From an uncultured virus (IMG/VR IMGVR_UViG_3300021375_000010) (lineage: Duplodnaviria > Heunggongvirae > Uroviricota > Caudoviricetes), in the IMG/VR virus record IMGVR_UViG_3300021375_000010: a DNA stretch of 64,000 nucleotides. One strand, written 5' to 3'. Below, in pieces: positions 9,290-47,412 of this stretch (its first letter is position 1; each line of letters starts with the position of its first letter). The notes under the pieces were generated by a model, which saw nothing but the letters and a program-made list of their open reading frames with translations, was not told the origin of the DNA and ran no database searches. Both the position numbers and the translations under genes were made by a program.

Positions 9290-9319
9290 AAATAGATGTA
9301 ACAATAATGAAACTCTAGG

Positions 9320-28726: not shown

Positions 28727-28938
28727 TGTCTGAATATTGGAAAGTAGATGGTCATTCATCATTAGCAAGAGATTCAGAATCTACTGCTGTGGTGAATACT
28801 GATATTAATGCTTATAGGGCGCAAAAACTTAGGAAAGAAAGCTTCAAAAGACAAGTAGAAGAGATAAATAATTTAAAGAAAGATGTTTCAGATATTAAAA
28901 CATTATTAACACAACTGGTAGATAAAATTCATGGCTAA
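28726..28938 (+). CDS. Small conserved coiled-coil protein
   Basis: KVDGHSSLARD..S.AVVNTD..EINNLKKDVSDIK; TAATG overlap with the upstream stop. Confidence 0.75.
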   Translation: MSEYWKVDGHSSLARDSESTAVVNTDINAYRAQKLRKESFKRQVEEINNLKKDVSDIKTLLTQLVDKIHG

Positions 28939-31426
28939 ACAAGTAGACCAATACAGTACTATAGAAACATTCAGACAAGTCTTCAATGAAGTATCTTCGG
29001 ATATGGGAGACACAAGTGGTCTGAGAACAGAGAGTCAAGAAACTCTTGTCGATGCAGTTAATAGTATTGAAGATAAAGCATTCTTTTTCCAAGAATATCG
29101 CTTCGTTGCAACAGCAGGTCAAACCACGTTTAGTGGTAATGATGTTGCAAATCACGAGTTAGAATTTAAAGCTAATAGAGTTCAAGTGTATGTCAATGGT
29201 ATACAAAAGAACTTTTCTAGTGAATATTCTATCGGTGGATTTGGTATACTTAACGCAACTACTTACAATTCAATCCAGTTACAGTCTGCTGCTTCAGTCG
29301 GCGATGAAGTAACCGTTTTCTCATTCACAGGTTCATACTTAGGAACAGATGCCGCTGGTTCAACAACAGGTTTTTGGTCTACCACTGCTACAGGTGATAT
29401 CTATAATAATAACTCAAAAGGTGTTATCATTAACGGTGAGGTTGACCCTAGGGTAACCTCTCGTGAAAGTTCTGATATCAAAATTCAGTTAGAAGGTAAG
29501 ACAAAAATCAATGGTGATGTAACCGTCCATACTGGAGGTACATTAACATCTCCAACACTTACAGATGGTAGTGGTGCTACAATTACTGGTGGTGATTACG
29601 CTGGTATTGATGCAACACTTACTGGAGACTTGAGTGTCGGCGATGCTGGTACGTTTGGTGGTACACTTGGTGTCACAGGTAATACAACAGTTGGAGGCAC
29701 ATTTGGTGTTCAAGGTGCTTCAACATTATCTAGTTCATTAGATGTAACTGGTATAACAAATTTAAACAACACGACAGAATCTTCAAGTATTTCAACAGGT
29801 GCTTTGATTGTTGATGGTGGTGTTGGAATCAAAAAGAAATTATTTGTCGGTGGGAATGCCGACTTTGCTGCAAATCTACAAGTAGATGGTAACTCAGTAT
29901 TAAGTGGAAGTGTTAACATTGATGGTGCTACAGATATCGATTCGACACTAGACGTTCTTAATAACACAACATTACGAGCAGATTTAAGTGTTGCTGGTAA
30001 TACATCAATGACAGGAACGCTGGATGTTGATGGTGCTACAACACTAGACGGTACTACAATCGATGGTGATTTAGACCTTAACGGTAGTGCAAACATCTCT
30101 ACTAACGCATTAATAGGCGGAACTTTAGGAGTTACAGGCGCTACAACATTATCAAGTACATTAGGAGTTACAGGCGCTGCAACATTATCAAGTACATTGG
30201 GTGTTACAGGAAACACAACTGTAGGTGGAACTCTAGGAGTTACAGGAAACACAACTGTAGGTGGAACTCTAGGAGTTACAGGAGATACATCTTTAAGTAA
30301 TGCATCCTTGAGCGGTACACTTGGTGTTACAGGTGCTACAACATTATCAAACATACTAGACGTAACTGGTGTAACAAATTTAAACAACACTACACAATCT
30401 TCATCTTTGTCAAGTGGTGCTTTGATTGTTGATGGTGGTGTTGCAATCGCAAAGAATTTAAATGTTGGTGGTAACATTACTGCTACTGGAAGTATTACTG
30501 CAAACGGTGACATAACACTAGGTGATGCAGACACAGACAATATTGTTTTTGGTGCTGATGTTGATTCAGATATCATGCCAGATGATAATAATACATATGA
30601 TTTAGGTTCAGATACTAAGAAGTGGGCGAAAGTCTACTCAACAAATTTCTATGGTGAATTGAACGGAAACGCTTCAACAGCGACAACTTTAGCAACTGCA
30701 AGAACTCTTGGTGGTGTATCTTTTGATGGTAGTGCAAATATCAATTTGCCTGGCGTAAACGCTCAAGGTAATCAAGACACTACTGGTAACGCAGCTACTG
30801 CTACAGCATTGGAAACTGCAAGAAATATTGGTGGAGTGTCATTCGATGGTACACAAGCTATTAACCTTCCTGGCGTAAACACTACAGGTAATCAAGATAC
30901 AAGCGGTAATGCAGCCACAGCAACTACACTTGCTACTGCAAGAAGTATTTCAGGTCAATCATTCGATGGTAGTGCAAATATTACACTTAAAACTTCAGGG
31001 ATAACAGAAGAAACCAATCTGTACTTTACAAACGCAAGAGCAGATGCCAGAGCAGACGGAAGAATTGGTGCTGCTAGTATAGAAGACCTAAGTAATGTTT
31101 CTGCTGGTGCAGGCAATGGTCAGGTACTAGTGTGGAGTGGTTCTTCTTGGGTGCCAGGCGACCAAAGTACAACTACAAGTTCTGTACAAGAGACCAGCGA
31201 CTTTGTATATTTCACAGACAATAGAGTTGCAGACACATTAAAGGTCTCAAACGGAACACCTACATATAATAATGGTATTAAATTATCATATAACGATAAC
31301 GCTGATGGTGGTGACAATACCACTACCGATGGGAGAATAGATTTGGCATTAGATTATGAAATAACAAGTAGCGCACCTACAGCAGTCGGAAGTACTAGTA
31401 GTGGTCATCTATGGTTTGTGATATGA
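28931..31426 (+). CDS. Tail fibre / appendage protein with beta-repeat shaft
   Basis: TLGVTG 12-aa repeats; NA.TAT.L.TAR.I.G.SFDG repeats; C-terminal SSAPT...GHLWFV. Confidence 0.75.
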   Translation: MAKQVDQYSTIETFRQVFNEVSSDMGDTSGLRTESQETLVDAVNSIEDKAFFFQEYRFVATAGQTTFSGNDVANHELEFKANRVQVYVNGIQKNFSSEYSIGGFGILNATTYNSIQLQSAASVGDEVTVFSFTGSYLGTDAAGSTTGFWSTTATGDIYNNNSKGVIINGEVDPRVTSRESSDIKIQLEGKTKINGDVTVHTGGTLTSPTLTDGSGATITGGDYAGIDATLTGDLSVGDAGTFGGTLGVTGNTTVGGTFGVQGASTLSSSLDVTGITNLNNTTESSSISTGALIVDGGVGIKKKLFVGGNADFAANLQVDGNSVLSGSVNIDGATDIDSTLDVLNNTTLRADLSVAGNTSMTGTLDVDGATTLDGTTIDGDLDLNGSANISTNALIGGTLGVTGATTLSSTLGVTGAATLSSTLGVTGNTTVGGTLGVTGNTTVGGTLGVTGDTSLSNASLSGTLGVTGATTLSNILDVTGVTNLNNTTQSSSLSSGALIVDGGVAIAKNLNVGGNITATGSITANGDITLGDADTDNIVFGADVDSDIMPDDNNTYDLGSDTKKWAKVYSTNFYGELNGNASTATTLATARTLGGVSFDGSANINLPGVNAQGNQDTTGNAATATALETARNIGGVSFDGTQAINLPGVNTTGNQDTSGNAATATTLATARSISGQSFDGSANITLKTSGITEETNLYFTNARADARADGRIGAASIEDLSNVSAGAGNGQVLVWSGSSWVPGDQSTTTSSVQETSDFVYFTDNRVADTLKVSNGTPTYNNGIKLSYNDNADGGDNTTTDGRIDLALDYEITSSAPTAVGSTSSGHLWFVI
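30122..30345 (+). repeat. 36-nt-period coding repeats (TLGVTGxTTxxx)
   Basis: Successive GGAGTTACAGG/GGTGTTACAGG copies mostly 36 nt apart. Confidence 0.75.
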
Positions 31427-31427
31427 T

Positions 31428-33038
31428 ATGGCAGATGAAATTTATATAAACATTGGCTCTACGATACAACAACCGTATCAAGGACAAGCTATTGCAACTG
31501 GTACAGCACCAATCATAAGACAACGTATAGCTCGTCAGCCTGCCAATCAACAAGTACCCTTTACATATTCTAATAGAAGTCCATTCACCTATGCTAGACA
31601 GGGTCGAACGCCAGCACCATATAATCATCAAGTTCCTGCTACATATGTTGGACAAGGTAGACAACCCTCTACTTATGTAAATCAACAACCTAGTACGTAT
31701 AGAAATCCAGTGAATGGTCAACAACCATATATCGCTAGCGCTAGACAACCGAGTACGTATCAAAATCAGATTCAAACACCTTATATTGCTAATGCAAGGC
31801 AACCTAGTATCTATAACCTACAGGGTAATATTCCGTATCAGAATCCTGTTATTGCACAACAACCTTATCAAAACCAAGTTAATAAACAGATACCGTTTAC
31901 GTATACCAATCAAACAACGTATCAGTATACTGCTAATGCCCAGCAACCGTATCCGTACATTGCTAATGGACAATATGTAGCACAAACACAACAACCTTAT
32001 ACATATCCGTACATTGCAAATAGACAAAACACTGCTCAACAACCAGCGTCTTACAGACATCCTGTAATTGCAAATAGACAAACTACGATTGATAATGCTA
32101 ATCCTTCAATTGCAAGTAGACAAACAGCGGTGAATGCTACATATCAAGTTATTGCACAACAACCAGCAATACAAGAATACACATATCAAGCAAACGCCCA
32201 GGCGAGTGTGCAAGCTCAATCACCTTATATTGCTCAGGTGCAAGCTAATTATGGGTTTAGACAACCAGCATCATATCAGTTCACTACACAAGCAATTGCT
32301 CAAAGACCAGTGATATATACAGCGACTGGTAATTACCAAGCAAGTTATCAAACCCAATTACAACAACCTTACATATATCAACAACCAAATCAGGTTCCTG
32401 CTTCAGGACAAAACCAATTAGCAGTCTCATATAATTATCCCGACCCTATAATTGGAGAATATTTCCATGGTACAGGAAATTTCCAAAGTTATTCGTATGG
32501 GGGACTAGTCGGAACAGACCTATATGCCGCTATGGGTGCCCCACTTGGGACATACTATGCTCCAGCAGGTGTTGATGGTAATACTAACAGTGGTTCCCCT
32601 CAAAATGGCGCAACAGGTGCTTACTTACCGCCGACCGTTGGCGTACCCGCTCAGGCGCTAGCGGGTCAAGCGACACCAGGCGTATCACCAACTTGGAAGA
32701 CAACTCAAAGAATGGGTGGAACAATGCCTTGGACTGGATTGTACTCACATGACCCATCTGTGAATAATCATATACAATTAAAACCAAGTCAACCTATGAG
32801 ATTAAATGCTACTGGTCAGTGGAATAGGATAGAATATGCTTACTGGAGTTATAGCTCCAATACATGGAATCATATCGGTGGAATACCAGTAATATATATG
32901 CAAGCAGTCAATGTCCAAGGCCCAACTCAAGGAATATATGATATTCAAGGGGTGAATTGGATTGTTGGTGGAGGACTACCATCATCTGTTCAAGGTTACA
33001 CAGTATTGAATGCCCCTAAACGATTGAGGTTCTATTAA
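31428..33038 (+). CDS. Q/P/Y repeat protein A1 with C-terminal globular domain
   Basis: About 330 aa of degenerate QQPY/RQPSTY/PFTY units, then about 190 aa non-repetitive. Confidence 0.8.
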   Translation: MADEIYINIGSTIQQPYQGQAIATGTAPIIRQRIARQPANQQVPFTYSNRSPFTYARQGRTPAPYNHQVPATYVGQGRQPSTYVNQQPSTYRNPVNGQQPYIASARQPSTYQNQIQTPYIANARQPSIYNLQGNIPYQNPVIAQQPYQNQVNKQIPFTYTNQTTYQYTANAQQPYPYIANGQYVAQTQQPYTYPYIANRQNTAQQPASYRHPVIANRQTTIDNANPSIASRQTAVNATYQVIAQQPAIQEYTYQANAQASVQAQSPYIAQVQANYGFRQPASYQFTTQAIAQRPVIYTATGNYQASYQTQLQQPYIYQQPNQVPASGQNQLAVSYNYPDPIIGEYFHGTGNFQSYSYGGLVGTDLYAAMGAPLGTYYAPAGVDGNTNSGSPQNGATGAYLPPTVGVPAQALAGQATPGVSPTWKTTQRMGGTMPWTGLYSHDPSVNNHIQLKPSQPMRLNATGQWNRIEYAYWSYSSNTWNHIGGIPVIYMQAVNVQGPTQGIYDIQGVNWIVGGGLPSSVQGYTVLNAPKRLRFY

Positions 33039-33039
33039 G

Positions 33040-34158
33040 ATGGCTATAGGATTTACACAACAAAATAACCCTTTCACATTCCAACAAACGTTGAATGTGG
33101 AAACTGAAGGGCAAAGACCTGTACCTGCTATAGCACAACAACCAGCTACGTATTCATATCCTGCTATCGGACAGCAAGATTATCAGGTTACGTATCAACA
33201 CCCTGCTAGTTATAGGACACCTGTTATCGGTACTTACCCATATACTACAAATGCTCAAGCACAGACGACTTATCAGAGTCCATTTACATATTCTAGAACT
33301 GCACAAAAAGAAATACAGGTATCTATACAACAAAATGCTCCGTATATAAACCAACAACCTTCTACGTATCAGCTTCAGAGTCCGACTACTTCACAGCAAC
33401 CGTCTACTTATCAACATAGACAACCTGCTATATATCAAGTTGCATATCAACACCCGACAACGTATTCTAGACAAGGTGTTGCACAAACACAGGTGTCTTA
33501 TAGACATCCATTCACATATGCACGACAAGGACAAACCCCGTTTACATATACTAGAGAAGCTAGACAACCTTATATTGCTAATGCTAGACAACCTACTACA
33601 TACCCTGTAATATCAGATAGGAATTATAATCATCAACAACCAGCGATACAAACGTATCCATTTACTGCTGATGCACAGACACCGTTCACCTATCAACATA
33701 GACAACCTAGTACTGCAGTTGCTAATGCACAAACACCGTTTACGTATCAGAATAGGAGTCCATTTACATATAGGAATCCTGTAAATGCACAGACACCTTA
33801 CATTGCTAATGCACAGACACCTTACATTTTACAGAGGGCATATAACACCCCTGTTATTAGGATAACACAACAACCTTATCCGTATATTGCGAATGCACAA
33901 CAACCTTATATTGCTAATGCTAGACAACCCACTACATACCAAGTTACATATCAAGTTGCATACCAAGTACAGCAACCTTACATATACCAACAAGATTATA
34001 GTACAACTAGAAGTATTGGGCCGATCGCTAAAGTTAAAGGGATATATGTAAATGATGGAAACCAAATAAAGAAACTAGATAAAGTGTATGTCAATGATAG
34101 TGGCACTGTAGAGAAGATTCACCAATCTGTTCCAACTGCACAGTTTAGTAAAACATAA
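33040..34158 (+). CDS. Q/P/Y repeat protein B1 (mirror partner of A1)
   Basis: Same repeat units; C-terminal KVKGIYVNDG..LDKVYVNDSG motif. Confidence 0.8.
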   Translation: MAIGFTQQNNPFTFQQTLNVETEGQRPVPAIAQQPATYSYPAIGQQDYQVTYQHPASYRTPVIGTYPYTTNAQAQTTYQSPFTYSRTAQKEIQVSIQQNAPYINQQPSTYQLQSPTTSQQPSTYQHRQPAIYQVAYQHPTTYSRQGVAQTQVSYRHPFTYARQGQTPFTYTREARQPYIANARQPTTYPVISDRNYNHQQPAIQTYPFTADAQTPFTYQHRQPSTAVANAQTPFTYQNRSPFTYRNPVNAQTPYIANAQTPYILQRAYNTPVIRITQQPYPYIANAQQPYIANARQPTTYQVTYQVAYQVQQPYIYQQDYSTTRSIGPIAKVKGIYVNDGNQIKKLDKVYVNDSGTVEKIHQSVPTAQFSKT

Positions 34159-34176: not shown

Positions 34177-34509
34177 ATGGCCATAATTGCAAATATATTC
34201 ATAGACCAAGGCGCTGACTTTCAGATTACTGTTGACGTTACAGATGTTAACGGTGCAGTTTTGAATATGTCAGGGTATACTGCAACAGGACAAATTCGAA
34301 AAACTTATGAATCTAGTACAGTAGCAGCAACATTTACTTGTACTGTAACAGAGGCCTCAGGACAGGTCACTATGTCACTCACCGACGCTGTAACAGCAGC
34401 TATGAGTCCAGGCAGGTATGTTTATGACTTGGTCACAACTGATGGTAGTGGTCTCAAGACACGTGTTGTTGAGGGACAAGCTATAATTACGCCGGGAGTT
34501 ACAAGATGA
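34177..34509 (+). CDS. Virion structural/adaptor protein (Ig-like, BppU-like)
   Basis: NIFIDQGADF..GYTATGQIRK..GRYVYD..RVVEG...PGVT. Confidence 0.7.
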   Translation: MAIIANIFIDQGADFQITVDVTDVNGAVLNMSGYTATGQIRKTYESSTVAATFTCTVTEASGQVTMSLTDAVTAAMSPGRYVYDLVTTDGSGLKTRVVEGQAIITPGVTR

Positions 34510-34908: not shown

Positions 34909-36543
34909 ATGGCAACAGTAATTCAAATTAAAAGAAGTACAGGTGTTGCGGCTCCATCTACGAGTGATTTATCAGTAGGTGAGTTGGCATATGTACAAGA
35001 TAGAGCGAATTCAGGTGCTGGTGCGAAACTATATATCGAATCAGTAGACTCAGATAACTCTACTCCACTTATTCAAGCAATTGGTGGTAAATATTATACG
35101 GATATACTAGGTGGTTCAGCTGCAACGCCTGCTAACTTTAAAGTTGGTAATGGTGCAACTGCTGGTGCAAGTGTTCAGTTAATGGAAGACAGTGATAATG
35201 GAACGAACTTCGTTGCATTAAAAGCTGCTGACACATTGGGTGCTTCGACAACCTTTACTCTACCTACAGCAGACGGTTCTGCAAACCAAGTAATTGGTAC
35301 AGATGGTAGTGGAAACTTATCATTCTTATCAACAACATCAACACTAGCAGGTGCAACGGATTCAGATATTTCATCTCCAACAGGCGGACAAATGCTTGTT
35401 CATGATGGAAGTAATTCATTCGATAACGTATCAATGAGTGGTGATGCAACTATGGCATCTAGTGGTGCAGTAACAATCGGAAACGATAAAGTTACAACTG
35501 CTAAGATTCTAAACGCTAATGTAACAGTAGATAAGATTAACTTCTTAGTTGACGAAGATGACATGTCATCTGATTCAGCAGTCAAAGTTCCTTCTCAGCA
35601 ATCTGTTAAAGCATATGTAGATTCAAACATCACAGCACAGGACTTAGACCTTGCTGGTGACAGTGGAAGTGGTTCAGTCGACTTAGACTCTCAGTCAATC
35701 ACATTTACTGGTGGAACTGGTGTAACAACTTCTGTTTCAGGTCAAGCAGCGACTTTCGCTATTGGTCAGGCAGTTGCAACAACATCTAACGTAACTTTCA
35801 ACAACGTAGACGTTGATGGAACACTTACATCGGATGACATCACATCTACAAACATCGCTGCTTCAGGTAACCTAACAGTTTCAGGCAACTTGACAGTAAA
35901 CGGTACTACAACAACAGTTAACTCTACAACAGTAGAAATTGATGACCCTGTATTTGAAATCGGTGAAGGAACTTCAGACGATAACTTAGACAGAGGTATT
36001 AAATTTAACTGGCACAATGGTTCAGCTGCTAAGATTGGTTTCTTTGGTATGGACGATTCAGACGGTAAGTTTAAGTTCATCCAAGATGCAACAGATACAT
36101 CTTCAGTCTTCTCAGGAAGTGTTGGTGATGCAGAATTTGGTGCATTAACAGTTGGTAGTCTTTCAACAGGTGGTAACCTTTCAGGTGCTGGTCTTGCATT
36201 AAGTGGTTCAATCACTTCTGTAGACGGTGCGGCTCCTGCTGCTGGTGAGTTATTGGTTGGTAATGGTTCTAATGGAGACATGGAACTTGCAACTCTAACT
36301 GCTGGTGAAGGTATCGATGTAACTAATGCTGACGGTGCAATAACAATCGCTGCTGAAGATGCTACAACATCTAATAAAGGTATCGCAAGCTTTGCTTCTG
36401 CTATCTTTGATGTTTCAAGTGGTGCTGTATCTATTAAAGATGCAACAGCTTCAGTAAAAGGTATTGCTTCTTTTGCTTCAAGTAACTTTACAGTATCAAG
36501 TGGTGCGGTAACAGTTACTGCTATTGACGGCGGAACATTTTAA
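34909..36543 (+). CDS. Fibre protein (IQIKRS N-terminus, IDGGTF C-terminus)
   Basis: IQIKRS..P..L.VGELAY; GNLTVNGTTTTVNST; strong SD. Confidence 0.75.
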   Translation: MATVIQIKRSTGVAAPSTSDLSVGELAYVQDRANSGAGAKLYIESVDSDNSTPLIQAIGGKYYTDILGGSAATPANFKVGNGATAGASVQLMEDSDNGTNFVALKAADTLGASTTFTLPTADGSANQVIGTDGSGNLSFLSTTSTLAGATDSDISSPTGGQMLVHDGSNSFDNVSMSGDATMASSGAVTIGNDKVTTAKILNANVTVDKINFLVDEDDMSSDSAVKVPSQQSVKAYVDSNITAQDLDLAGDSGSGSVDLDSQSITFTGGTGVTTSVSGQAATFAIGQAVATTSNVTFNNVDVDGTLTSDDITSTNIAASGNLTVSGNLTVNGTTTTVNSTTVEIDDPVFEIGEGTSDDNLDRGIKFNWHNGSAAKIGFFGMDDSDGKFKFIQDATDTSSVFSGSVGDAEFGALTVGSLSTGGNLSGAGLALSGSITSVDGAAPAAGELLVGNGSNGDMELATLTAGEGIDVTNADGAITIAAEDATTSNKGIASFASAIFDVSSGAVSIKDATASVKGIASFASSNFTVSSGAVTVTAIDGGTF

Positions 36544-36581
36544 TTAATAATCCAAATTAACCGATTCAATAGGAGAAGAAA

Positions 36582-37406
36582 ATGGCAACAGTAATCCAAT
36601 TTAAAAGAAGTTCTACTCAGAACGCATTACCAGGCGTAAGTGACCTTGCACTTGGTGAATTAGCGGTAAACACTTACCACGGTAGGTTTTACACTGAGAA
36701 GAATGATGGTTCTGCTGCTGTTGTAGAAGTTGGGTCTAACCCGACTTCTCTTACTATCAATGATGCTTTAACATTCCCAACTGCAGACGGTACAAGTGGT
36801 CAGTTATTATCAACAAATGGAAGTGGAACTTTAGGTTTCGTAAATGCACCAAGCACTGGTGTTGTAACTTTCAAATATGATATAACTGGTAACACAACCG
36901 TAATTTCAGGTTCAGATGATAATGGTGTAACACTTGCTTACACTGTTGGACTAGAACAAGTCTATCTGAATGGTGTTAAATTAGTGAGTGGTGATGACTA
37001 TGCTACAACTAGTACTTCAGTTATCACATTACAGGCGAACGCTGTGGCGGGAGATGTATTACAAGTAGTTGCACAGACTTCAATATCAAACCTTGTACAA
37101 GGTTTCTTCACGACAGTTGCTTTAACAGCAACGACTGCTGACCAAGTATTGACTTCTAACGCAAAAGCAGTAATTGCAATTAAACATGTAATTGTTGCAA
37201 CACATGCTACTGGTGGTACTCACGCTGCTGAGGTTCTTTTAATCAATGACGGTACGAATGTATACTTCGTTCAGTATGGTGATGCATACTCAGGTTCATC
37301 TCTATTCACACTTTCTAGTGATATGAATAGTAACAACATGAGATTGCTGGTAACACCTGCTAATACGAATACTACATTCAAAACGTTCCAAATTAGAATG
37401 CAATAG
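36582..37406 (+). CDS. Fibre/structural protein
   Basis: IQFKRSS..L.LGELAVN; VYLNGVKL..DY; C-terminal HDG..QYG-like domain. Confidence 0.72.
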   Translation: MATVIQFKRSSTQNALPGVSDLALGELAVNTYHGRFYTEKNDGSAAVVEVGSNPTSLTINDALTFPTADGTSGQLLSTNGSGTLGFVNAPSTGVVTFKYDITGNTTVISGSDDNGVTLAYTVGLEQVYLNGVKLVSGDDYATTSTSVITLQANAVAGDVLQVVAQTSISNLVQGFFTTVALTATTADQVLTSNAKAVIAIKHVIVATHATGGTHAAEVLLINDGTNVYFVQYGDAYSGSSLFTLSSDMNSNNMRLLVTPANTNTTFKTFQIRMQ

Positions 37407-37419
37407 GGAGGCATAAGAA

Positions 37420-37830
37420 ATGGCTAAAACAAGAGGTTTCGAACTTGCCGAGTTAATCCGTGGTATACAGTTTGATGTCAGTAATGATGTTATTACTACT
37501 ACAAAGGATATTCGTTCTAATGGACATACACAGGGTGGTTCTACCACTACTGCAGTAACAGAGGTTGCACTCGATACATTTGCTCACGCAACGTATAGAG
37601 CTGCAAGATATGTTGTTGCTATGTCCCAAGGGTCAGAGTTTCACTCTACTGAAATTGTCGTAGTACATGACGGTTCAGCAGTGACTCTAACTCAATATGG
37701 AACATTGAAATCATCTAACCTTGCATCGTTTGATGCTGACATTAGTGGTTCAGATGTAAGATTAAAAGTAACTCCAGCAAGTGGTTCATCTACAGTTATC
37801 AAATTTGATAGGACAACGGTAGACGCTTAA
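37420..37830 (+). CDS. Structural protein (YRAARY..HSTEI.VVHDG..QYG domain)
   Basis: Paralogous to the C-termini of the 36582 and 37903 proteins. Confidence 0.72.
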   Translation: MAKTRGFELAELIRGIQFDVSNDVITTTKDIRSNGHTQGGSTTTAVTEVALDTFAHATYRAARYVVAMSQGSEFHSTEIVVVHDGSAVTLTQYGTLKSSNLASFDADISGSDVRLKVTPASGSSTVIKFDRTTVDA

Positions 37831-37850
37831 TTATTAAAAAAACTATTTTT

Positions 37851-37876
37851 AGGGGACTTTTCAGTCCCCTTTTTTT
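37851..37876 (+). terminator. Rho-independent terminator
   Basis: AGGGGACT-TTTC-AGTCCCCT followed by a T run. Confidence 0.8.
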
Positions 37877-37889
37877 AACTCTCATAATG

Positions 37890-37897
37890 TATAAATA
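37890..37897 (+). promoter_or_regulatory. Late promoter TATAAATA
   Basis: Exact consensus just after the terminator. Confidence 0.7.
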
Positions 37898-37902
37898 GTA
37901 TC

Positions 37903-38646
37903 ATGGCAACGAAATCAAAGTTCTACACAGACCTAGGGATAGCATCCCAAGATAACTCGACAGTAGATGGTGACTTAACAGTCACTGGCAATCTAACTGT
38001 TTCGGGTACTAGTTTTACAATTGATTCAACAACAGTTTCTGTTACAGATTCTATGTTTGAACTTGCAAGTGGAAACACTTCAAGTGACTTAATCGATATT
38101 GGTCTCTATGGAAACTATGATGATGGATTGTCAGATGGCGCAACTGAATATACTGGTTTATTCAGAGATGCTTCCGACTCAACATGGAAGTTGTTTGACG
38201 GATTAGAATTAGAACCAGGCAATACTGTTGACGCTACTGGTTCAGGATTTGCATTTGCAGATTTTAAAGCTGGTGATATAGAGGCGACAGGTCAGCTGAC
38301 AGCAGTTGGGCCACTGAGTTTAGGCAATCTAAGAGTAGATGCTAATGATTCAGTCACTACAACTTCAACAACTGAAGCTACATTAGATACGTTTTCACTA
38401 CTAGCATATAGAAGTGGTAAGTACCATGTACAAGCATCTAGTGGTAGTAATTATCATGCTACAGAAGTGATGGTAATCCATGATGGAACCAATGCTTACT
38501 TCTCACAGTATGGTGATATAACAACAGGAAGTTCCCTTTTCACACTTTCTGTTGACACTTCATCGGGTAGTGTTAGACTTAGAGTCACCCCCGCTTCAGC
38601 GACTTCAACAGTATTTAAATTTAGTAGAAATATTTTAAAAGTTTAA
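37903..38646 (+). CDS. Fibre/structural protein
   Basis: GDLTVTGNLTVSGT; YTGLFRDASD; YRSGKY..HATEVMVIHDG..QYG. Confidence 0.72.
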   Translation: MATKSKFYTDLGIASQDNSTVDGDLTVTGNLTVSGTSFTIDSTTVSVTDSMFELASGNTSSDLIDIGLYGNYDDGLSDGATEYTGLFRDASDSTWKLFDGLELEPGNTVDATGSGFAFADFKAGDIEATGQLTAVGPLSLGNLRVDANDSVTTTSTTEATLDTFSLLAYRSGKYHVQASSGSNYHATEVMVIHDGTNAYFSQYGDITTGSSLFTLSVDTSSGSVRLRVTPASATSTVFKFSRNILKV

Positions 38647-41555: not shown

Positions 41556-43763
41556 ATGGCATCAGGTTCACAGAAGGTAAAAACACCGCAGGGCTGGAAT
41601 TCTACCCAAGGTGCTTGGGTTAAAACAGGTTCATCCACATGGAAAGCGGTAGACCAAATTTATGTTAAGACACCTACAGGGTGGAATAATGCATCGGGTC
41701 AACAGTCTGTACAACAACCTTACCCATACATTGCTAATAGTCAGACCCCATATATTGCGAATGCACAGCAACCGTATCCTTACATTGCTAATGCACAGAC
41801 GCCTTATATCGCTAACGCTCAGCAACCGTATCCGTACATTGCCAATAATCAGACACCTTACATTGCAAATGCACAACAACCGTATCCTTATATAGCGGAT
41901 AGTCAAACCCCATTTACGTATCAGAATAGGAGTCCATTTACATATAGGAATCCTGTAAATGCACAGACACCATTTACGTATCAGAACAGGACACCATTTA
42001 CATATAGGAACCCAGTTAACGCTCAAACGCCTTATATCGCTAACGCTCAGCAACCGTATCCTTACATTGCTAATAGTCAGACCCCATATATTGCGGATGC
42101 TCAACAACCGTATCCTTACATTGCTAATAGTCAAACACCATATATTGCGAATGCACAGCAACCGTATCCGTACATTGCTAATGCTCAATCGCCTTATATT
42201 GCTAACGCTAGACAACCTGCTATTTATCAGAATCCATCAAGTTCACAGACACCTTACATTGCTCAGGCAAGACAACCTGCTGGATATAGAAACCCTGTTT
42301 CTGCACAACAACCATATATCGCTAACGCTAGACAACCATTTACATATAGAAACCCTGTAAATGCTCAATCGCCTTATATTGCGAATGCACAGCAACCGTA
42401 TCCTTACATTGCTAATAGTCAAACGCCTTATATTGCGAATGCACAGCAACCGTATCCATATATTGCTAACAGTCAGACTCCATACATTGCGAATGCTAGA
42501 CAACCTAGTACGTATAGAAACCCAGTAAATGCACAGACACCTTACATTGCGAATGCTCAACAACCATATCCGTATATAGCAAATAGTCAAAGTCCTTATA
42601 TTGCAAATGCTCAGCAACCGTATCCATATATTGCTAATGCTCAAACGCCTTATATTGCTAACGCTAGACAACCAAACACATACGCCCGACAAGGTAGAAC
42701 ACCGTTTACGTATCAAAACAGGTCTCCATTTACATATAGGAGTCCAGTAAACGGACAACAACCATTTACGTACCAAAACAGGTCTCCATTTACATACAGA
42801 AATCCTGTAGGATACCAAGTACCGTTTACGTATCAAAATAGGTCACCGTTTACTTACAGAAACCCTGTAGGTTATCGAGTACCGTTTACATACCAAAACA
42901 GACAACCAAGTACGTATAGAAACCCAGTGAATGGACAGCAACCTTACATTGCTAATGCAAGGCAACCTGCTGGATATAGAAATCCAGTATCAGCACAGCA
43001 ACCATATATTGCTAACGCTAGATACCCTGCTAACGCTCAGAGTCCTAGTAACGCTCAGTCGCCGTTTACTTACAACGCAAGATACCCTGCTAACGCTCAG
43101 AGTCCTAGTAACGCTCAGTCGCCGTTTACTTACAATGCTAGGTATCCTGCTAATGCTCAGTCACCAAGTAACTCACAAACACCGTTTACTTACAACGCAA
43201 GATACCCTGCTAGCGCTCAGTCACCAAGTAACTCTCAAACACCGTTTACTTACAATGCTAGGTATCCAGCGATTTATACTGCTAATGCTAGAGCATCTGT
43301 GAGTTCAAGAACTCCTGGCACCTATCCATACAGGGCACCTGTTGGTTATTGGGAATCTAGTACTAATTATGTTCAAAGTTATCAGATGGGATATGCTGAG
43401 GGAGTGGGTAAATATTCAGCCTTCGGTGCCGCCTTGGGAACTTATCAGTCATCACTTGGTTCTTTACAGCAGTTTGGTATTGTTACTGGTTCTCAATCGC
43501 CATTTTACTCTGTCATTGCATACCAAAATTCTTCTAGCGCACCTACAACGTTTTTCATTGGTGGTACAAATTCACTACCAATTGGGCCGCTTAGTCAAAT
43601 TGTGACTCAGTGGACTAGAGGTTATTATCCATCACCTTTCTCTCTGCCATTCCAGTACATGCAGTTCTCACAAGGTAGATGGTATATACAAGGTAGAAAT
43701 ATGATAAGAGAAAACAGTCCTGCCGGTGTTTACGGGGCTCTTAGAATAAGTGTAACAAAATAG
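41556..43763 (+). CDS. Q/P/Y repeat protein A2: N-terminal W/YVK motif, 526-aa repeat tract, C-terminal globular domain
   Basis: 28 long (10/12 aa) and 27 short (8 aa) alternating units, aa 53-578. Confidence 0.85.
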   Translation: MASGSQKVKTPQGWNSTQGAWVKTGSSTWKAVDQIYVKTPTGWNNASGQQSVQQPYPYIANSQTPYIANAQQPYPYIANAQTPYIANAQQPYPYIANNQTPYIANAQQPYPYIADSQTPFTYQNRSPFTYRNPVNAQTPFTYQNRTPFTYRNPVNAQTPYIANAQQPYPYIANSQTPYIADAQQPYPYIANSQTPYIANAQQPYPYIANAQSPYIANARQPAIYQNPSSSQTPYIAQARQPAGYRNPVSAQQPYIANARQPFTYRNPVNAQSPYIANAQQPYPYIANSQTPYIANAQQPYPYIANSQTPYIANARQPSTYRNPVNAQTPYIANAQQPYPYIANSQSPYIANAQQPYPYIANAQTPYIANARQPNTYARQGRTPFTYQNRSPFTYRSPVNGQQPFTYQNRSPFTYRNPVGYQVPFTYQNRSPFTYRNPVGYRVPFTYQNRQPSTYRNPVNGQQPYIANARQPAGYRNPVSAQQPYIANARYPANAQSPSNAQSPFTYNARYPANAQSPSNAQSPFTYNARYPANAQSPSNSQTPFTYNARYPASAQSPSNSQTPFTYNARYPAIYTANARASVSSRTPGTYPYRAPVGYWESSTNYVQSYQMGYAEGVGKYSAFGAALGTYQSSLGSLQQFGIVTGSQSPFYSVIAYQNSSSAPTTFFIGGTNSLPIGPLSQIVTQWTRGYYPSPFSLPFQYMQFSQGRWYIQGRNMIRENSPAGVYGALRISVTK
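41712..43289 (+). repeat. Coding repeat tract of A2 (24/30/36-nt units)
   Basis: Parsed from the translation; many near-identical DNA units. Confidence 0.9.
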
Positions 43764-43774
43764 GAATTAGAAAT

Positions 43775-44035
43775 ATGGCATTATATGAAACAACAATAAC
43801 AAACCCCGATGGAAGTACTGAAATTGCTTTAAATAAAGATTTCGTATTCTCTGATATTGGTGGAGATGTAACTTGTACACAAACAGGATTTAAAGCAGCA
43901 TACACAGTAGGAGACAATACGGACTTAGTACAAGCTGAGGCGGATATCGATTCTTGTATTGCAAACAACTTGGAAGTTTGGGCTTGGCAGAAGTATTACC
44001 AAAACCCTCTGAATCCAAGTGAACTAAGAGAATAA
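43775..44035 (+). CDS. 86-aa hypothetical protein between the paired repeat genes
   Basis: AGGA SD; tightly packed in the operon. Confidence 0.7.
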   Translation: MALYETTITNPDGSTEIALNKDFVFSDIGGDVTCTQTGFKAAYTVGDNTDLVQAEADIDSCIANNLEVWAWQKYYQNPLNPSELRE

Positions 44036-44047
44036 TAGGAAAAAGAC

Positions 44048-45727
44048 ATGGCACAAGGCAGTTATCAGGTTCCGTCCATTGCACAACAACCGTTCACGTA
44101 CAGCGCATCGTATCGTGTGCCATACATTGCTAACGCAAGACAGCCTGGCACCTATAGGAACCCATTTACGTATCGTGTGCCTTATATTGCTAACGCAAGA
44201 CAGCCTGGCACCTATAGGAACCCATTTACGTATCGTGTGCCTTATATTGCGAATGCTAGACAACCTAGTACATATCGTAACCCATTCACGTATCGTGTGC
44301 CTTATATTGCGAATGCTAGACAACCTAGTACATATCGTAACCCATTCACATATAGGGTTCCGTTCACATACCAAAACAGGTCTCCATTTACATATAGGAA
44401 CCCTGTAAGTTATCGTGTGCCATTTACTTATAATAATAGACAACCATTTACATATAGAAACCCTGTAAATGCTCAATCGCCTTATATTGCTAACGCTAGA
44501 CAACCTGCTGGTTACAGAAACCCTGTTTCAGGACAACAACCATATATCGCTAACGCTAGACAACCTGCTGGTTACAGAAATCCAGTATCAGCACAGCAAC
44601 CATATATTGCTAACGCAAGAAACCCATTCACATATAGGAACCCTGTAAACGGTCAACAACCGTACATTGCAAGTGCTCAACAACCGTATCCATATATTGC
44701 GAACAGTCAAACACCGTTCACGTATCAAAATAGGCAACCTAGTACATATGCTAGACAGGGTAGAACACCGTTCACATACCAAAATAGACAGCCTGGTACA
44801 TATGCTAGACAAGGTCAAACACCATTTACATACAGTAATAGACAACCTAGTACGTATAGAAACCCAGTAAATGCTCAAACACCATTTACATACAGTAATA
44901 GACAACCTGGCACATATGCTAGACAAGGTCAAACGCCATTTACGTATCAGAACAGACAGCCTGGCACATATGCACGACAAGGACAAACTCCTTTCACGTA
45001 CCAAAATAGACAACCGAGTACGTATAGAAACCCAGTGAATGGTCAATCGCCATTTACGTATCAGAACAGGTCTCCGTTTACATATAGAAACCCTGTAGGT
45101 TATCAAGTACCATTTACATACAGTAATAGACAACCTGCTATCTATGGAAACCCTGTAAGTTATCAGATACCATTTACGTATCAGAACAGACAACCTAGTA
45201 CATATGCTAGACAAGGTCAAACGCCATTTACGTACCAAAATAGACAACCTGGCACGTATGCTAGACAAGGTCAGACACCATTTACATACAGTAATAGACA
45301 ACCTGGCACATATGCTAGACAAGGTCAAACGCCATTTACGTACCAAAATAGACAACCTAGTACGTATAGAAACCCAGTGAATGGACAACAACCATATATC
45401 GCTAACGCTAGACAACCTAGTACGTATAGAAACCCAGTGAATGGTCAACAACCATATATCGCTAACGCTAGACAACCTGGCACATATGCTAGACAGGGTA
45501 GAACACCGTTCACTTATCAAAATAGACAACCTGGCACATATGCACGACAAGGACAAACTCCTTTCACGTATCAACACAGACAACCTTCAACATATAGTAG
45601 ACAAGGTAGAACACCGTTCACTTATCAGAACAGACAACCTTCAACATATGCTAGACAAGGTAGAACACCTGTTATACGTTGGGATGGTAACTTGTCACAA
45701 CAGTGGCCTGCTGCTGATATAAGTTAA
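44048..45727 (+). CDS. Q/P/Y repeat protein B2 (mirror partner of A2)
   Basis: 12 aa + 526-aa repeat tract + 21 aa = 559 aa. Confidence 0.85.
   Translation: MAQGSYQVPSIAQQPFTYSASYRVPYIANARQPGTYRNPFTYRVPYIANARQPGTYRNPFTYRVPYIANARQPSTYRNPFTYRVPYIANARQPSTYRNPFTYRVPFTYQNRSPFTYRNPVSYRVPFTYNNRQPFTYRNPVNAQSPYIANARQPAGYRNPVSGQQPYIANARQPAGYRNPVSAQQPYIANARNPFTYRNPVNGQQPYIASAQQPYPYIANSQTPFTYQNRQPSTYARQGRTPFTYQNRQPGTYARQGQTPFTYSNRQPSTYRNPVNAQTPFTYSNRQPGTYARQGQTPFTYQNRQPGTYARQGQTPFTYQNRQPSTYRNPVNGQSPFTYQNRSPFTYRNPVGYQVPFTYSNRQPAIYGNPVSYQIPFTYQNRQPSTYARQGQTPFTYQNRQPGTYARQGQTPFTYSNRQPGTYARQGQTPFTYQNRQPSTYRNPVNGQQPYIANARQPSTYRNPVNGQQPYIANARQPGTYARQGRTPFTYQNRQPGTYARQGQTPFTYQHRQPSTYSRQGRTPFTYQNRQPSTYARQGRTPVIRWDGNLSQQWPAADIS
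44084..45661 (+). repeat. Coding repeat tract of B2
   Basis: 28 long and 27 short units in reverse length order relative to A2. Confidence 0.9.
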
Positions 45728-45778: not shown

Positions 45779-47374
45779 ATGGAAAAAATAACAACACTTG
45801 ATGCACTACTTCTAAAATTAGAAGAAACCCCTATACCAACTGAAGAACTCAAAACCTATGGTCATGCTCAGAGACATCTATTACCCCAATATCATTTAGG
45901 GTCTACTAATATTGATGAGATTGATAAAGACAGCGAGTTCTATAAAGTCTTATCATACTTTTTTGATAATGTTATGCCTCCCCTACGACTTCTTAAGTGG
46001 TCAGACCTTGATACACTGAGAAGAAAGAAAGAGATTACGACCTTTAATGGATTACAATTTCAGTGTAATGCATATCACAAATTCATGCCAGATATTTACA
46101 CTTCAGGAATCCAACCCGAAGGTGAAACAAACATAACAACAAAATTCCAAGTTGCCACTGTTGATGATGAAGTGCAAAAAATTCAAGACTACTGTGGTGA
46201 AGCAACCGACCCACGTGACTTTTATTCAGAAGATTTTGACATGTCTATGAATTCAATGTATTATCATAGTGCGAAAGCTCATTGGATTACACAAAGTATT
46301 AGAGAGGAGGGATTGTGGGCTCCTATTCAAGGATATACTCAATCTCCTAACGGTACTAATTTCACACAACTTATGATACATCCAGGCAGTGTACGTTCAG
46401 GTGTATTTGAAGAGATGGAAGACCCAACACATGAACTTTTGATATGGGATTTCCAAGATACATTCCCCGACATTCCAGCAATGTCCATAGACGATTCTTT
46501 GAATTACTGGAAAGAAACCATCCTCAATGGTAATACAAAATGCAATCATAAAAACTTGAGTGTTATATTTACTAATGGTACACTTGAATATCAATCCGAC
46601 CATTCCAATATAGAATTTAGAAGAGAAGTTTGGAAACATAGTAAGAAGTTTACAGAACTTTCTGCTGGAAAACCTCTAACAATTTATATTGGTTATGACC
46701 CTAGACACAATAATCTAGAGTTGTACTCCAAGCAATCTATATTAGATGCAGTGAAGAGAAGTGTTGGTGGTGGGAGATTTGTTGATTACACTAGGTTTAC
46801 GCCAGAAATTAAAATACTTGACATTTCAAAGATACCCGAGTACACTAGAGAGTATGCAAATCAATCTACTGAATTTACATACAGTAGATTCTTAATACCG
46901 TATCTTGAGAACTATGAAGGGTTTAGTATGTTTGTAGATGATGACTTCATCTTTAATAAAAACCCTATGCCTATGTTCTATTACCTAGGTCAAGATGATG
47001 CAGTAGCATGTATCAAGTATCCACAAATTAAACATGATGAAACCAAGTTTGATGGAGAAGTTAATATAGATTATCCATGTAAACTATGGTCATCTATGAT
47101 GTTCTTCAATAACAGTCATCCCGACTGTAAGAAGTTGACACCCGAAGTGGTTAACACTTGGACAGGTGCCCAATTACATCAATTCGAATGGACTGATAAG
47201 ATTGCTCCCATCCCCGAGAAGTATGTGTTCGTTGAGGGATATGATGACCCCGAGGTTAAGTGGGATTTCTCTGCTGTTCACTATACAAGAGGTGGGCCAT
47301 GGATAAATGGGATGGATACAGGACACATAAATAATTTAGAACACTACAACAAAGTTAAAAACAGCTTGTTGTGA
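45779..47374 (+). CDS. Glycosyltransferase (GT-A fold, GT8/CDI-like) with an extra N-terminal domain
   Basis: IYIGYDPR; STEFTYSRFLIPYL; FVDDDF (DxD); WSSMMFFN; HYTRGGPW. Confidence 0.85.
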   Translation: MEKITTLDALLLKLEETPIPTEELKTYGHAQRHLLPQYHLGSTNIDEIDKDSEFYKVLSYFFDNVMPPLRLLKWSDLDTLRRKKEITTFNGLQFQCNAYHKFMPDIYTSGIQPEGETNITTKFQVATVDDEVQKIQDYCGEATDPRDFYSEDFDMSMNSMYYHSAKAHWITQSIREEGLWAPIQGYTQSPNGTNFTQLMIHPGSVRSGVFEEMEDPTHELLIWDFQDTFPDIPAMSIDDSLNYWKETILNGNTKCNHKNLSVIFTNGTLEYQSDHSNIEFRREVWKHSKKFTELSAGKPLTIYIGYDPRHNNLELYSKQSILDAVKRSVGGGRFVDYTRFTPEIKILDISKIPEYTREYANQSTEFTYSRFLIPYLENYEGFSMFVDDDFIFNKNPMPMFYYLGQDDAVACIKYPQIKHDETKFDGEVNIDYPCKLWSSMMFFNNSHPDCKKLTPEVVNTWTGAQLHQFEWTDKIAPIPEKYVFVEGYDDPEVKWDFSAVHYTRGGPWINGMDTGHINNLEHYNKVKNSLL

Positions 47375-47394
47375 TAACAATCTTATGATATAAT
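47366..47394 (+). promoter_or_regulatory. Sigma70-like (extended -10) promoter
   Basis: TTGTTG-N17-TATAAT with TGn before the -10 box, then a GGAG/AAGGA SD. Confidence 0.55.
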
Positions 47395-47412
47395 GGAGAA
47401 AAAGGATATATT

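What the first reader, a model, noticed from the sequence alone, without database searches (positions are those of the whole stretch)
31428..34158. A second, more diverged mirror pair obeys the same pairing code
Reading A1 forward against B1 backward gives: QVPFTYSN/QQPYIANA, RSPFTYARQG/QQPYPYIANA, RTPAPYNH/NTPVIRIT, QVPATYVGQG/QTPYILQRAY, RQPSTYVN/QTPYIANA, QQPSTYRNPVNG/RSPFTYRNPVNA, QQPYIASA/QTPFTYQN, RQPSTYQNQI/RQPSTAVANA, QTPYIANA/QTPFTYQH; further on, QIPFTYTN/RQPYIANA, QTTYQYTANA/QTPFTYTREA, QQPYPYIANG/RHPFTYARQG. Unit lengths match and the same complementary classes recur in a different order from pair 2. This independently supports the zipper model. The different order could stop A1 pairing with B2, acting as an address code, and would give a shorter stalk with a different tip domain. 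The distal part is too degenerate for me to parse confidently.
Basis: partly seen in the sequence, partly recalled or inferred. Interest (0 to 1): 0.88.

Follow-up and report, generated by a model that had tools for sequence, protein, structure and literature searches.

The report
Mirror-coded two-chain phage fibre pair
Two neighbouring genes of an uncultured marine T4-like phage encode repeat proteins that fit each other residue by residue when one is read backwards, which points to a long two-chain fibre stalk of a design not described in the papers I searched.

Summary
A1 (31428-33038, 536 aa) and B1 (33040-34158, 372 aa) share one ungapped antiparallel register, a+b=336. It runs over the whole 335-residue arm of A1, and all 12 quoted unit pairs lie on it.

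Parse-free tests:
- Proline ladder: 19 coincidences against a unit-shuffle null of 12.4±1.1 (0/2000). The parallel reading is at chance.
- Aromatic-against-Ala/Gly/Ser facing: 62 at a+b=339 (next 36; 0/2000). The "degenerate" distal half alone peaks at the same register.
- Parity: every proline lies on one parity and 86 of 87 aromatics on the other.

Four more split pairs with arms of about 160 to 540 residues keep the rule. So do natural single-chain forms that carry A1's N-terminus and B1's C-terminus and mirror onto themselves.

Best reading: a two-chain antiparallel beta-type stalk in the host-recognition cluster, with conserved proximal ends and A1's orphan 201-aa domain at the tip. Binding is inferred only, because structure predictors gave nothing usable.

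The address-code idea is only partly supported in silico. Earlier notes of this scan describe the same family on other DNA. My paper searches found no description.

The parts
31428..33038 (+). Gene A1 (536 aa), the chain that carries the tip domain
   Evidence: ORF. No Pfam or PHROG family. 367 relatives at E<=1e-3, all unnamed or 'hypothetical'.
31428..31466 (+). A1 residues 1-13, conserved N-terminal cap MADEIYINIGSTI
   Evidence: It faces B1 323-335 at a+b=336. The same cap faces the same TRxxGPxAKVKG motif in L006, L007, L008, L010 and L012 and in the fused L034 and L039. In the fused L014 the motif is diverged and shifted.
31467..32432 (+). A1 arm, residues 14-335: proline-punctuated units of even length
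   Evidence: 33 of 33 Pro lie at even positions and 40 of 40 F/Y/W at odd positions. The mirror register with B1 is shown.
32433..33035 (+). A1 residues 336-536, non-repeat C-terminal domain (proposed distal tip)
   Evidence: It starts where B1 residue 1 faces A1 335. It is an orphan: 2 proteins at E<=1e-3 among 1.84 billion representatives, none in the PDB and none in phage records. The AF2 model is unusable (pLDDT 31.9).
33040..34158 (+). Gene B1 (372 aa), the return chain
   Evidence: ORF. No Pfam or PHROG family. Orthologues at 95% and 70% identity align without a single gap over 372 columns.
33040..34005 (+). B1 arm, residues 1-322
   Evidence: 35 of 35 Pro lie at odd positions and 46 of 47 F/Y/W at even positions. 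It faces A1 14-335.
34006..34044 (+). B1 residues 323-335, conserved TRSIGPIAKVKGI, facing the A1 cap
   Evidence: In 20 of the 44 fused forms that have this motif (47 fused forms in all), the best aromatic-small self-register lies 5 residues past the motif's end, as in B1.
34045..34155 (+). B1 residues 336-372, C-terminal tail overhanging the duplex: two VYVNDxG..K repeats, then EKIHQSVPTAQFSKT
   Evidence: It is conserved at the C-terminus of all B chains of this type and of the fused forms. Its role as a proximal attachment is inferred.
28931..31426 (+). Upstream neighbour (831 aa), a tail-fibre-like protein. Syntenic with the A gene in L001-L008.
   Evidence: PHROG tail fiber families, e.g. 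phrog_6722 at E 1.4e-48. Synteny.
34177..34509 (+). Downstream neighbour (110 aa), LtfC-like beta-sandwich. Also conserved after the B gene in L007.
   Evidence: Pfam PF23926 at E 2e-7. phrog_3304 'L-shaped tail fiber protein assembly' at E 1.7e-22. Orthologue at L007 6646-6978.
41556..43763 (+). Gene A2 (735 aa), chain A of the cleaner pair 2, used here as the reference for the code
44048..45727 (+). Gene B2 (559 aa), chain B of pair 2
   Evidence: 71 Pro coincidences with A2 at one anti-diagonal (B2 has 74 Pro). Null 31.4±2.2, 0/2000.

Best explanation
A1 and B1 are the two chains of one fibre stalk of an uncultured marine T4-like myophage.

Shown by the sequence:
- The first 335 residues of each chain are built from short, even-length, proline-punctuated units rich in Q, Y, A, T and N.
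- The two arms fit in a single ungapped antiparallel register. A1 residue a lies opposite B1 residue 336-a by unit boundaries.
- Prolines stand opposite prolines at a+b=341.
- Aromatic residues stand opposite Ala/Gly/Ser at a+b=339.

Inferred:
- The arms are extended beta strands that pair along their whole length. The strict period of two puts prolines and polar residues on one face and a big-against-small aromatic ladder on the other.
- The conserved ends form the virion-proximal end. These are the A1 cap MADEIYINIGSTI, the B1 motif TRSIGPIAKVKGI and B1's 37-residue tail.
- A1's orphan 201-residue C-terminal domain sits at the far tip as the likely host-binding part.
- B1 is the return strand that stiffens the stalk and sets its length.

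In related phages the same stalk is a single polypeptide folded back on itself. The two-gene form is therefore a hairpin split at its tip.

Not known: whether the duplex associates further (for example three duplexes around an axis), how long it really is, and where it attaches.
For: 1. Mirror register in the pair itself.
- Proline ladder 19 against a null of 12.4±1.1 (0/2000). The parallel reading is at chance.
- The pair-2-trained score picks a+b=336 among all diagonals.
- Aromatic against small: 62 at 339 (0/2000), and the distal half alone gives the same register.
- At that register there are 0 aromatic-aromatic and 0 Pro-Pro contacts in all five split pairs tested.

2. The register ties both chain ends to domain borders. 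B1 Met1 faces A1 335, and the non-repeat domain of A1 starts at 336.

3. Strict period two over the whole arms. A1 has 33/33 Pro even and 40/40 aromatics odd. B1 has 35/35 Pro odd and 46/47 aromatics even. A2 and B2 behave likewise.

4. Independent pairs.
- Of 31 loci found with the A-cap DNA pattern, 16 carry a split A gene. All 16 are followed within 256 nt by a B gene with a mirror peak. Twelve are fused and 3 are unrelated.
- The registers are a+b=180, 196, 229 and 336 in these loci, plus 591 in pair 2, each with the same end geometry.

5. Fused single-chain forms carry A1's N-terminus and B1's C-terminus and mirror onto themselves.
- Example: L034, 17 Pro pairs against a next peak of 11.
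- In 16 of 47, none of 200 shuffles reaches the observed peak.
- In 20 of the 44 with the anchor motif, the aromatic-small register sits at the same offset from the AKVKG motif as in B1.

6. Unit complementarity over 10 pairs or hairpins.
- 8-mers: 61 F-type against I-type, 0 F-F, 0 I-I.
- 10-mers: 31 F-I, 1 F-F.

7. Length constraint and covariation.
- The 70%-identical orthologous pair has no indel in either arm.
- Its substitutions co-occur best at a+b=339 out of 542 registers tried (OR 2.88, p 2e-5). Register 336 is third.

8. No inverted DNA repeat, so the mirror is not a DNA palindrome.

9. Context. The genes lie between a VrlC-like DUF4815 protein and the neck gene, next to fibre genes. 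This is the 'host recognition cluster' of pelagimyophages (PMC7029224, passages read).
Against: - No experiment and no usable structure model shows that the chains touch.
- AF2 on a fused form gave pLDDT 32.0.
- The mirror in pair 1 is partial at the unit level. Only 10 of 28 A1 units have an exactly coincident B1 unit, and 19 of 37 B1 prolines are matched.
- Forward BLASTP also aligns A1 with B1 (E 4e-19), so the shared vocabulary inflates any alignment.
- The orthologue covariation is broad: odds ratios of 1.4 to 2.9 from 335 to 344. It rests on one diverged pair.
- Many fused forms give weak or misplaced self-peaks. In 31 of 47 at least one shuffle reaches the peak, and 21 of the 44 with the anchor motif do not place the aromatic-small register at an offset of 5 or 13 from the motif.
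- Which small offset (336, 339 or 341) is the physical contact register cannot be told from sequence.
- No homologue was found in cultured phage records, so virion presence is unverified.
Confidence: 0.8

Rival explanations
1. A1 and B1 are merely tandem paralogues built from the same repeat vocabulary. On this view the mirror is a by-product of a quasi-palindromic 8-10-8-10 pattern and the chains do not pair.
For: - Forward BLASTP gives a collinear alignment (34% identity, E 4e-19). Both arms end in QQPYIYQQ.
- The unit-length series 8,10,8,10,8,12,8,10,8 is nearly its own mirror image.
Against: - The parallel proline register is at chance (13; 888/2000 shuffles reach it), while the antiparallel one is not (0/2000).
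- Like never faces like among 8-mers, whereas paralogy would put like with like.
- The aromatic-small statistic has a single outlying register (62 against 36). The best parallel value is 42.
- The same rule holds in pairs of other lengths and inside fused chains.
Confidence: 0.03
2. The two proteins fold separately, for example each as a repeat solenoid or its own homo-oligomeric fibre. They then lie side by side in opposite directions, so only repeat-level order needs to match and not residue-level order.
For: - It would also give mirrored unit order and co-located ends.
- Phage fibres are usually homotrimers (general knowledge).
- The predictors did not build a two-chain ribbon.
Against: - Side-by-side packing of folded repeats does not require equal residue counts. 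Yet unit lengths match one for one (6 with 6, 8 with 8, 10 with 10). One ungapped register holds over 335 residues, about 540 in pair 2.
- There are no indels in either arm at 70% identity.
- A residue-level big-against-small rule with zero aromatic-aromatic contacts holds in five pairs.
Confidence: 0.08
3. B1 pairs with A1 only during assembly, as a dedicated template or chaperone that sets the fold and length of the A1 arm. It is absent from the finished fibre.
For: - Phage fibres often need dedicated assembly proteins encoded next to them (general knowledge).
- An LtfC-like 'tail fiber protein assembly' gene follows B1.
- A small ORF sits between A and B in pair 2 and in L007.
Against: - Fused forms keep both arms in one polypeptide with no sign of a cleavage module, so there the return arm cannot leave.
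- B1 carries its own conserved C-terminal tail, which looks like a structural module.
Confidence: 0.07

Closest known systems
Needle domain of the T4 long-tail-fibre tip, gp37
   Same: It is an elongated antiparallel beta structure in a myophage fibre in which chains run out to the tip and back. [quoted passage not shown] The out-and-back topology is recalled, not read.
   Different: - In gp37 the two antiparallel strands belong to one chain of a homotrimer and are held by iron bound to histidines (PMC6957217, passage read).
- Here the return strand is a separate gene product, or the second half of a hairpin.
- The arms are hundreds of residues long and have no HxH motif (read directly from the sequences).
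- No sequence similarity to any PDB chain was found.
Streptococcal antigen I/II stalk
   Same: A long thin stalk made by two repeat regions of opposite direction pairing with each other, with a globular domain held at the far tip. It works like the fused hairpin forms.
   Different: There an alanine-rich alpha helix pairs with a polyproline helix within one chain (recalled). Here both arms have the same proline/aromatic period-two pattern that suggests beta strands, and the arms can be two proteins. No Pfam match.
Heterodimeric coiled-coil zippers and register-coded collagen heterotrimers (general knowledge)
   Same: Sequence-readable pairing rules that set partner choice and register in a long fibrous protein.
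   Different: Those are alpha-helical heptads or Gly-X-Y triplets. Here the period is two, units are 6, 8 or 10 residues, glycine is rare, and the chains run antiparallel.
Two-protein chain-like fibres of Pseudomonas podophage A1002 (PMC13730344, passages read)
   Same: A phage fibre built from more than one gene product.
   Different: That fibre is a string of globular dimers docked on a rope protein. It is not two chains paired residue by residue.

Membership tests
Mirror-coded A/B fibre pairs of marine T4-like phages (unpublished; defined here and in earlier notes of this scan) | Adjacent same-strand genes whose repeat arms share one ungapped antiparallel register | tested here: met
   a+b=336 over A1 1-335.
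Mirror-coded A/B fibre pairs of marine T4-like phages (unpublished; defined here and in earlier notes of this scan) | Strict period two: all prolines on one parity, aromatics on the other | tested here: met
   A1 33/33 and 40/40. B1 35/35 and 46/47.
Mirror-coded A/B fibre pairs of marine T4-like phages (unpublished; defined here and in earlier notes of this scan) | Complementary unit classes: PYIANA or PNIR type against PxTY type, never like with like | tested here: met
   Pair 1: 5 of 5 coincident 8-mers are F-I. The three coincident 10-mers are 1 F-I and 2 F-other. Only 10 of 28 units are cleanly coincident.
Mirror-coded A/B fibre pairs of marine T4-like phages (unpublished; defined here and in earlier notes of this scan) | The two chains physically bind | not testable with these tools
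T4 gp37-type needle | Sequence or profile similarity to gp37 tip structures | tested here: not met
   No PDB chain at E<=1 other than chance-level hits.
T4 gp37-type needle | Repeated His-x-His metal sites along the needle | tested here: not met
   The A1 arm has 2 His and the B1 arm 6 His. None is in an HxH motif in the sequences.
Known tail-fibre families in Pfam and PHROGs | Match to a curated family | tested here: not met
   0 families for A1 and B1 in Pfam and in PHROGs.
Collagen-like phage fibres | Gly-X-Y triplet repeats | tested here: not met
   Glycine is not among the ten commonest residues of the A1 or B1 arm, and unit lengths are 6, 8 or 10, not multiples of 3 throughout.
Curli-type amyloid subunits (curli genes are reported in pelagimyophages, PMC7029224 abstract) | Match to curlin repeat families | tested here: not met
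   No Pfam family for A1 or B1. There is a proline in every unit.

The most novel reading that the evidence does not exclude
These proteins embody a readable protein-protein pairing code. Two extended chains zip antiparallel over hundreds of residues, with partner, register and length set by a ladder of prolines and a big-against-small aromatic rule. One phage could then assemble two orthogonal stalks (335 and about 540 residues) side by side. Evolution could also split, fuse, lengthen or re-tip the stalk at will. It would be a beta-strand counterpart of the coiled-coil zipper.
Probability: 0.5. Interest if true: 0.92.

Novelty: categorically new. Interest (0 to 1): 0.86.

Why it matters
If the two chains really zip together, this is a fibre architecture without a described precedent. 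It would be a heteromeric, antiparallel, sequence-coded beta duplex up to several hundred residues long. It would sit in the host-recognition region of abundant marine phages whose nearest cultured relatives by capsid protein infect OM43 methylotrophs and SAR11.

It would explain four of the unannotated repeat genes in that region. It would give a rule for reading stalk length and partner from sequence alone. It would show how a hairpin stalk can be split to carry a new receptor-binding tip. The rule is simple enough to test directly and could serve protein design.

The paper searches behind 'not described' were:
- 'PYIANA' anywhere in the text: 0 papers.
- 'pelagimyophage' with 'tail fiber': 8 papers. 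I read passages of two and only the listing of the rest.
- 'tail fiber / antiparallel / heterodimer / myophage': 68 papers, 12 listed, none on such a pair judging by title and abstract start.

Tried and rejected
- Complex prediction of A1 1-171 with B1 165-372, using shallow alignments of 6 and 3 rows. Result: 'no answer', score 0.00 in both runs, controls not run. This counts neither for nor against binding.
- AF2 on the fused form P0011 with 36 aligned fused forms: mean pLDDT 32.0, unusable. Its two longest strands, 13-36 and 418-441, sum to 454. That is the aromatic-small register of this protein. I could not check that the strands pair, so I give it no weight.
- AF2 on the A1 tip domain (3 rows): pLDDT 31.9, so no fold search was made.
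- The protein atlas gave no usable hit for the tip domain.
- tblastn against 50,697 phage records found nothing relevant. The queries were the A1 tip, A2 and the B1 tail. BLAST's low-complexity filter may hide the arms.
- My first log-odds matrix was too harsh and gave only negative scores. I replaced it with a regularised one.
- DNA palindrome idea: rejected, 0 inverted repeats.
- Antisense-strand ORFs inside the repeats (for example 31395-31802 on the minus strand) are by-products of the repeat composition.
- The small ORFs between A and B in pair 2 and in L007 are not detectably related (E 0.16).
Full report
**What is there**

The window is the structural region of an uncultured T4-like marine myophage.
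- It carries baseplate genes (gp53, gp5, gp25, gp6 and gp8 families), a 2257-aa DUF4815 (VrlC-like) protein, and a block of fibre-like genes.
- Further on come the neck, sheath-stabiliser, terminase, sheath, tube, portal and capsid genes.
- The record is a 120,692-base virus contig, rated 67% complete.
- Its capsid protein is closest to Methylophilales phage Melnitz (68.1%) and Pelagibacter phage HTVC008M (65.3%).
- The finding lies in what Zaragoza-Solas et al. call the host recognition cluster, between VrlC and the neck gene gp14 (PMC7029224, passages read).
- A1 (31428-33038, 536 aa) and B1 (33040-34158, 372 aa) are adjacent + strand ORFs. Neither has a Pfam or PHROG family.
- The upstream gene matches tail-fibre PHROGs. 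The downstream gene is an LtfC-like 'tail fiber protein assembly' domain.

**Checking the observation**

I tested this without relying on any parsing.
- Counting proline-proline coincidences for every possible sum gives one outlying peak of 19. The next peaks are 13, 11, 11 and the best parallel diagonal is 13.
- Shuffling the order of B1's 33 units 2000 times gives 12.4±1.1 (maximum 18), so 0 of 2000 reach 19. The parallel value is reached by 888 of 2000.
- A residue-pair log-odds matrix learned only from pair 2 (A2 41556-43763, B2 44048-45727; 532 facing pairs) picks a+b=336 as the best diagonal of either direction (22.9, next -8.8). One of 1000 shuffles reaches it.

So the 'same pairing code' claim holds, although the signal is far weaker than in pair 2. 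There the ladder gives 71 coincidences (B2 has 74 Pro) against a null of 31.4±2.2.

The register covers the entire arm.
- B1 residue 1 faces A1 residue 335, and A1's non-repeat domain begins at 336.
- A1 residues 1-13 (MADEIYINIGSTI) face B1 323-335 (TRSIGPIAKVKGI). B1 then overhangs by 37 residues.

Every one of the 33 prolines of the A1 arm is at an even position and every one of its 40 aromatic residues at an odd one. In B1 the figures are 35 of 35 and 46 of 47 with the parities exchanged. A2 and B2 behave the same way (83/83, 87/87, 72/72, 91/91). A period of exactly two, kept without a slip for hundreds of residues, is what an uninterrupted extended strand would give. This is an inference from standard beta geometry.

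I scanned small offsets around the boundary register.
- At a+b=const+3 there are no aromatic-aromatic and no Pro-Pro contacts.
- At that offset the number of aromatic residues facing Ala, Gly or Ser is at its maximum in all five split pairs examined: 62, 114, 48, 48 and 36.
- Pro-Pro contacts peak at const+5.

For pair 1 the value 62 at a+b=339 compares with a next-best of 36, a best parallel value of 42 and a shuffle null of 33.8±1.9 (maximum 43; 0 of 2000). The distal, 'degenerate' half (A1 172-335) alone gives 33 at the same register (next 21; null maximum 28; 0 of 2000). The distal part therefore obeys the mirror at the residue level, even though its units are hard to name.

**Evidence from elsewhere**

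A1 has 367 relatives at E<=1e-3. All are unnamed or 'hypothetical' and come from marine metagenomes.

A scan of viral contigs with a DNA pattern for the A cap returned 31 loci.
- 16 have a split A gene. All 16 are followed within 256 nt by a B-type gene with a mirror peak.
- 12 have a fused gene.
- 3 are unrelated.

The split pairs fall into four types.

| Type (example locus) | A length (aa) | B length (aa) | Register a+b |
|---|---|---|---|
| L017 | 370 | 214 | 180 |
| L012 | 386 | 238 | 196 |
| L010 | 404-408 | 271 | 229 |
| Window type | 519-536 | 372 | 336 |

Each type has the same cap-to-anchor geometry and a B overhang of 35 to 43 residues. Pair 2 adds a+b=591.

The fused proteins begin like A1 and end like B1. 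Their N-terminal half mirrors their C-terminal half by the same rule.
- Among 47 fused forms, 16 have a self-mirror proline peak that none of 200 shuffles reaches.
- In 20 of the 44 with the anchor motif, the best aromatic-small self-register lies exactly 5 residues past the AKVKG motif, as in B1.
- The rest are weak or misplaced, which a single ungapped diagonal would not tolerate if one arm has a bulge.
- Several of these rows are close relatives of each other, so the counts overstate independence.

Over five split pairs and five fused forms (the 70% orthologue left out), coincident units pair as follows.
- 8-mers: 61 F-I, 0 F-F, 0 I-I, 16 with an unclassified partner.
- 10-mers: 31 F-I, 1 F-F, 6 with an unclassified partner.

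The orthologous pair in L006 (66-70% identity) has no indel in either arm. Positions substituted in A and in B co-occur best at a+b=339 among 542 antiparallel and parallel registers (OR 2.88, p 2e-5). Register 336 is third (OR 2.01, p 0.004). The enrichment is broad, from 335 to 344.

There is no inverted DNA repeat in 31428-34158. The mirror therefore exists only at the protein level and must be maintained by selection.

**How it most likely works**

The simplest account is that the two arms pair directly, strand against strand and in opposite directions, along their whole length.
- Equal unit lengths, one register, no indels, and a residue-level big-against-small rule are what direct pairing needs.
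- Side-by-side packing of separately folded repeats would not need these features.

The conserved ends of both chains come together at one end and the variable domain of A1 at the other. I therefore read the conserved end as virion-proximal and the A1 domain as the distal, host-binding tip. The tip domain is an orphan, with 2 relatives among 1.84 billion representatives.

The fused forms show that the stalk is in essence a hairpin, and that the two-gene form is the same hairpin opened at the tip.

Not shown here: binding itself, the true contact offset (336, 339 or 341), any higher assembly, the attachment site, and presence in the virion. If fully extended, 335 residues would span up to about 110 nm (0.33 nm per residue, textbook value). 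A twisted ribbon would be shorter.

**The address code**

The proline ladders are specific.

| Combination | z |
|---|---|
| A1 x B1 | 6.4 |
| A1 x B2 | 1.2 |
| A2 x B2 | 12.6 |
| A2 x B1 | 3.2 |

In a 6x6 matrix the cognate cells (z 4.6 to 12.6) and the orthologous cross-cells (7.2 and 8.3) lead. Two non-cognate cells reach z 4.2 and 5.0.

Against this, a residue-level score learned on the independent L007 pair gives best local segments of 59.4 for A1/B1. Non-cognate and homotypic combinations involving A1 or B1 score 32.0 to 62.6. Only pair 2 stands clear (348.6).

The two pairs also have unrelated proximal modules, which could supply specificity on their own. The idea is open.

The two tip domains differ in size but share weak similarity at both ends.

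**Comparison with what is known**

- No solved structure is related by sequence.
- No cultured phage record matched.
- My paper searches found no description.
[quoted passage not shown] It is held by iron-histidine sites (PMC6957217, passage). It differs in being a homotrimer of single chains, short, and metal-dependent.
- The antigen I/II stalk of streptococci (recalled) is similar in logic but is built from a helix and a polyproline helix.

Earlier notes of this scan describe the same kind of pair in other genomes and reached similar readings. They are unchecked AI notes and I do not count them as evidence. One of them used the phrase 'big-against-small', which I then tested on this pair.

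**Verdict**

The zipper reading is the best explanation, but it rests on sequence evidence alone. The address-code part is plausible and unproven.

Noticed in passing
window 43775-44035 (+); L007 5729-5980: An 86-aa ORF sits between A2 and B2. An 83-aa ORF sits at the same place between the A and B genes of L007. The two are not detectably similar (E 0.16). Pair 1 has no such insert. It could be an assembly factor or a chance ORF.
   Followed up: partly
window 45779-50373 (+): Directly after pair 2 lie a 531-aa protein (phrog_28018, unknown function) and two 2OG-Fe(II) oxygenase genes: 47912-48772 (PF13640/PF13661) and 49630-50373 (PF13759/PF13640). Earlier notes of this scan suggest that such a cassette might modify the proline-rich fibres. 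Nothing here shows that.
   Followed up: partly
proteins P0014, P0030, P0038, P0085, P0112, P0115, P0189, P0191, P0194, P0196-P0199, P0201, P0211: Some A-type relatives carry precomputed Pfam hits at or near their C-terminal end: PF14890, PF14623, PF05203 and PF08517. By recall, the first three are Hint or intein-type domains. This would suggest self-processing tips in some lineages.
   Followed up: no
window 8858-9304 (-): A 148-aa ORF with a TnsA-like endonuclease N-terminal domain (PF08722, E 7.7e-24) lies inside the baseplate gene block, on the opposite strand to the downstream baseplate genes. It may be a mobile or homing-type nuclease.
   Followed up: no
window 34909-38646 (+): Several fibre-like genes start with near-identical N-termini (MATVIQIKRSTG.., MATVIQFKRSS..). 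Two end with related C-terminal domains (phrog_25346). This suggests a family of alternative fibres sharing one attachment module.
   Followed up: no
window 41556-41711 (A2 residues 1-52) and 34045-34155 (B1 tail): Pair 2 has its two-repeat end module (..W.K..IYVK..GW..) at the N-terminus of the A chain. Pair 1 has a two-repeat module (VYVNDxG..K) at the C-terminus of the B chain. The proximal modules of the two pairs are thus on different chains and look different.
   Followed up: no
window 31395-31802 (-), 41631-42215 (-), 44588-45583 (-): Long antisense ORFs (..SNIR.., ..ICKW..) run through the repeat genes. They follow from the codon composition of the repeats and are very unlikely to be genes.
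   Followed up: partly
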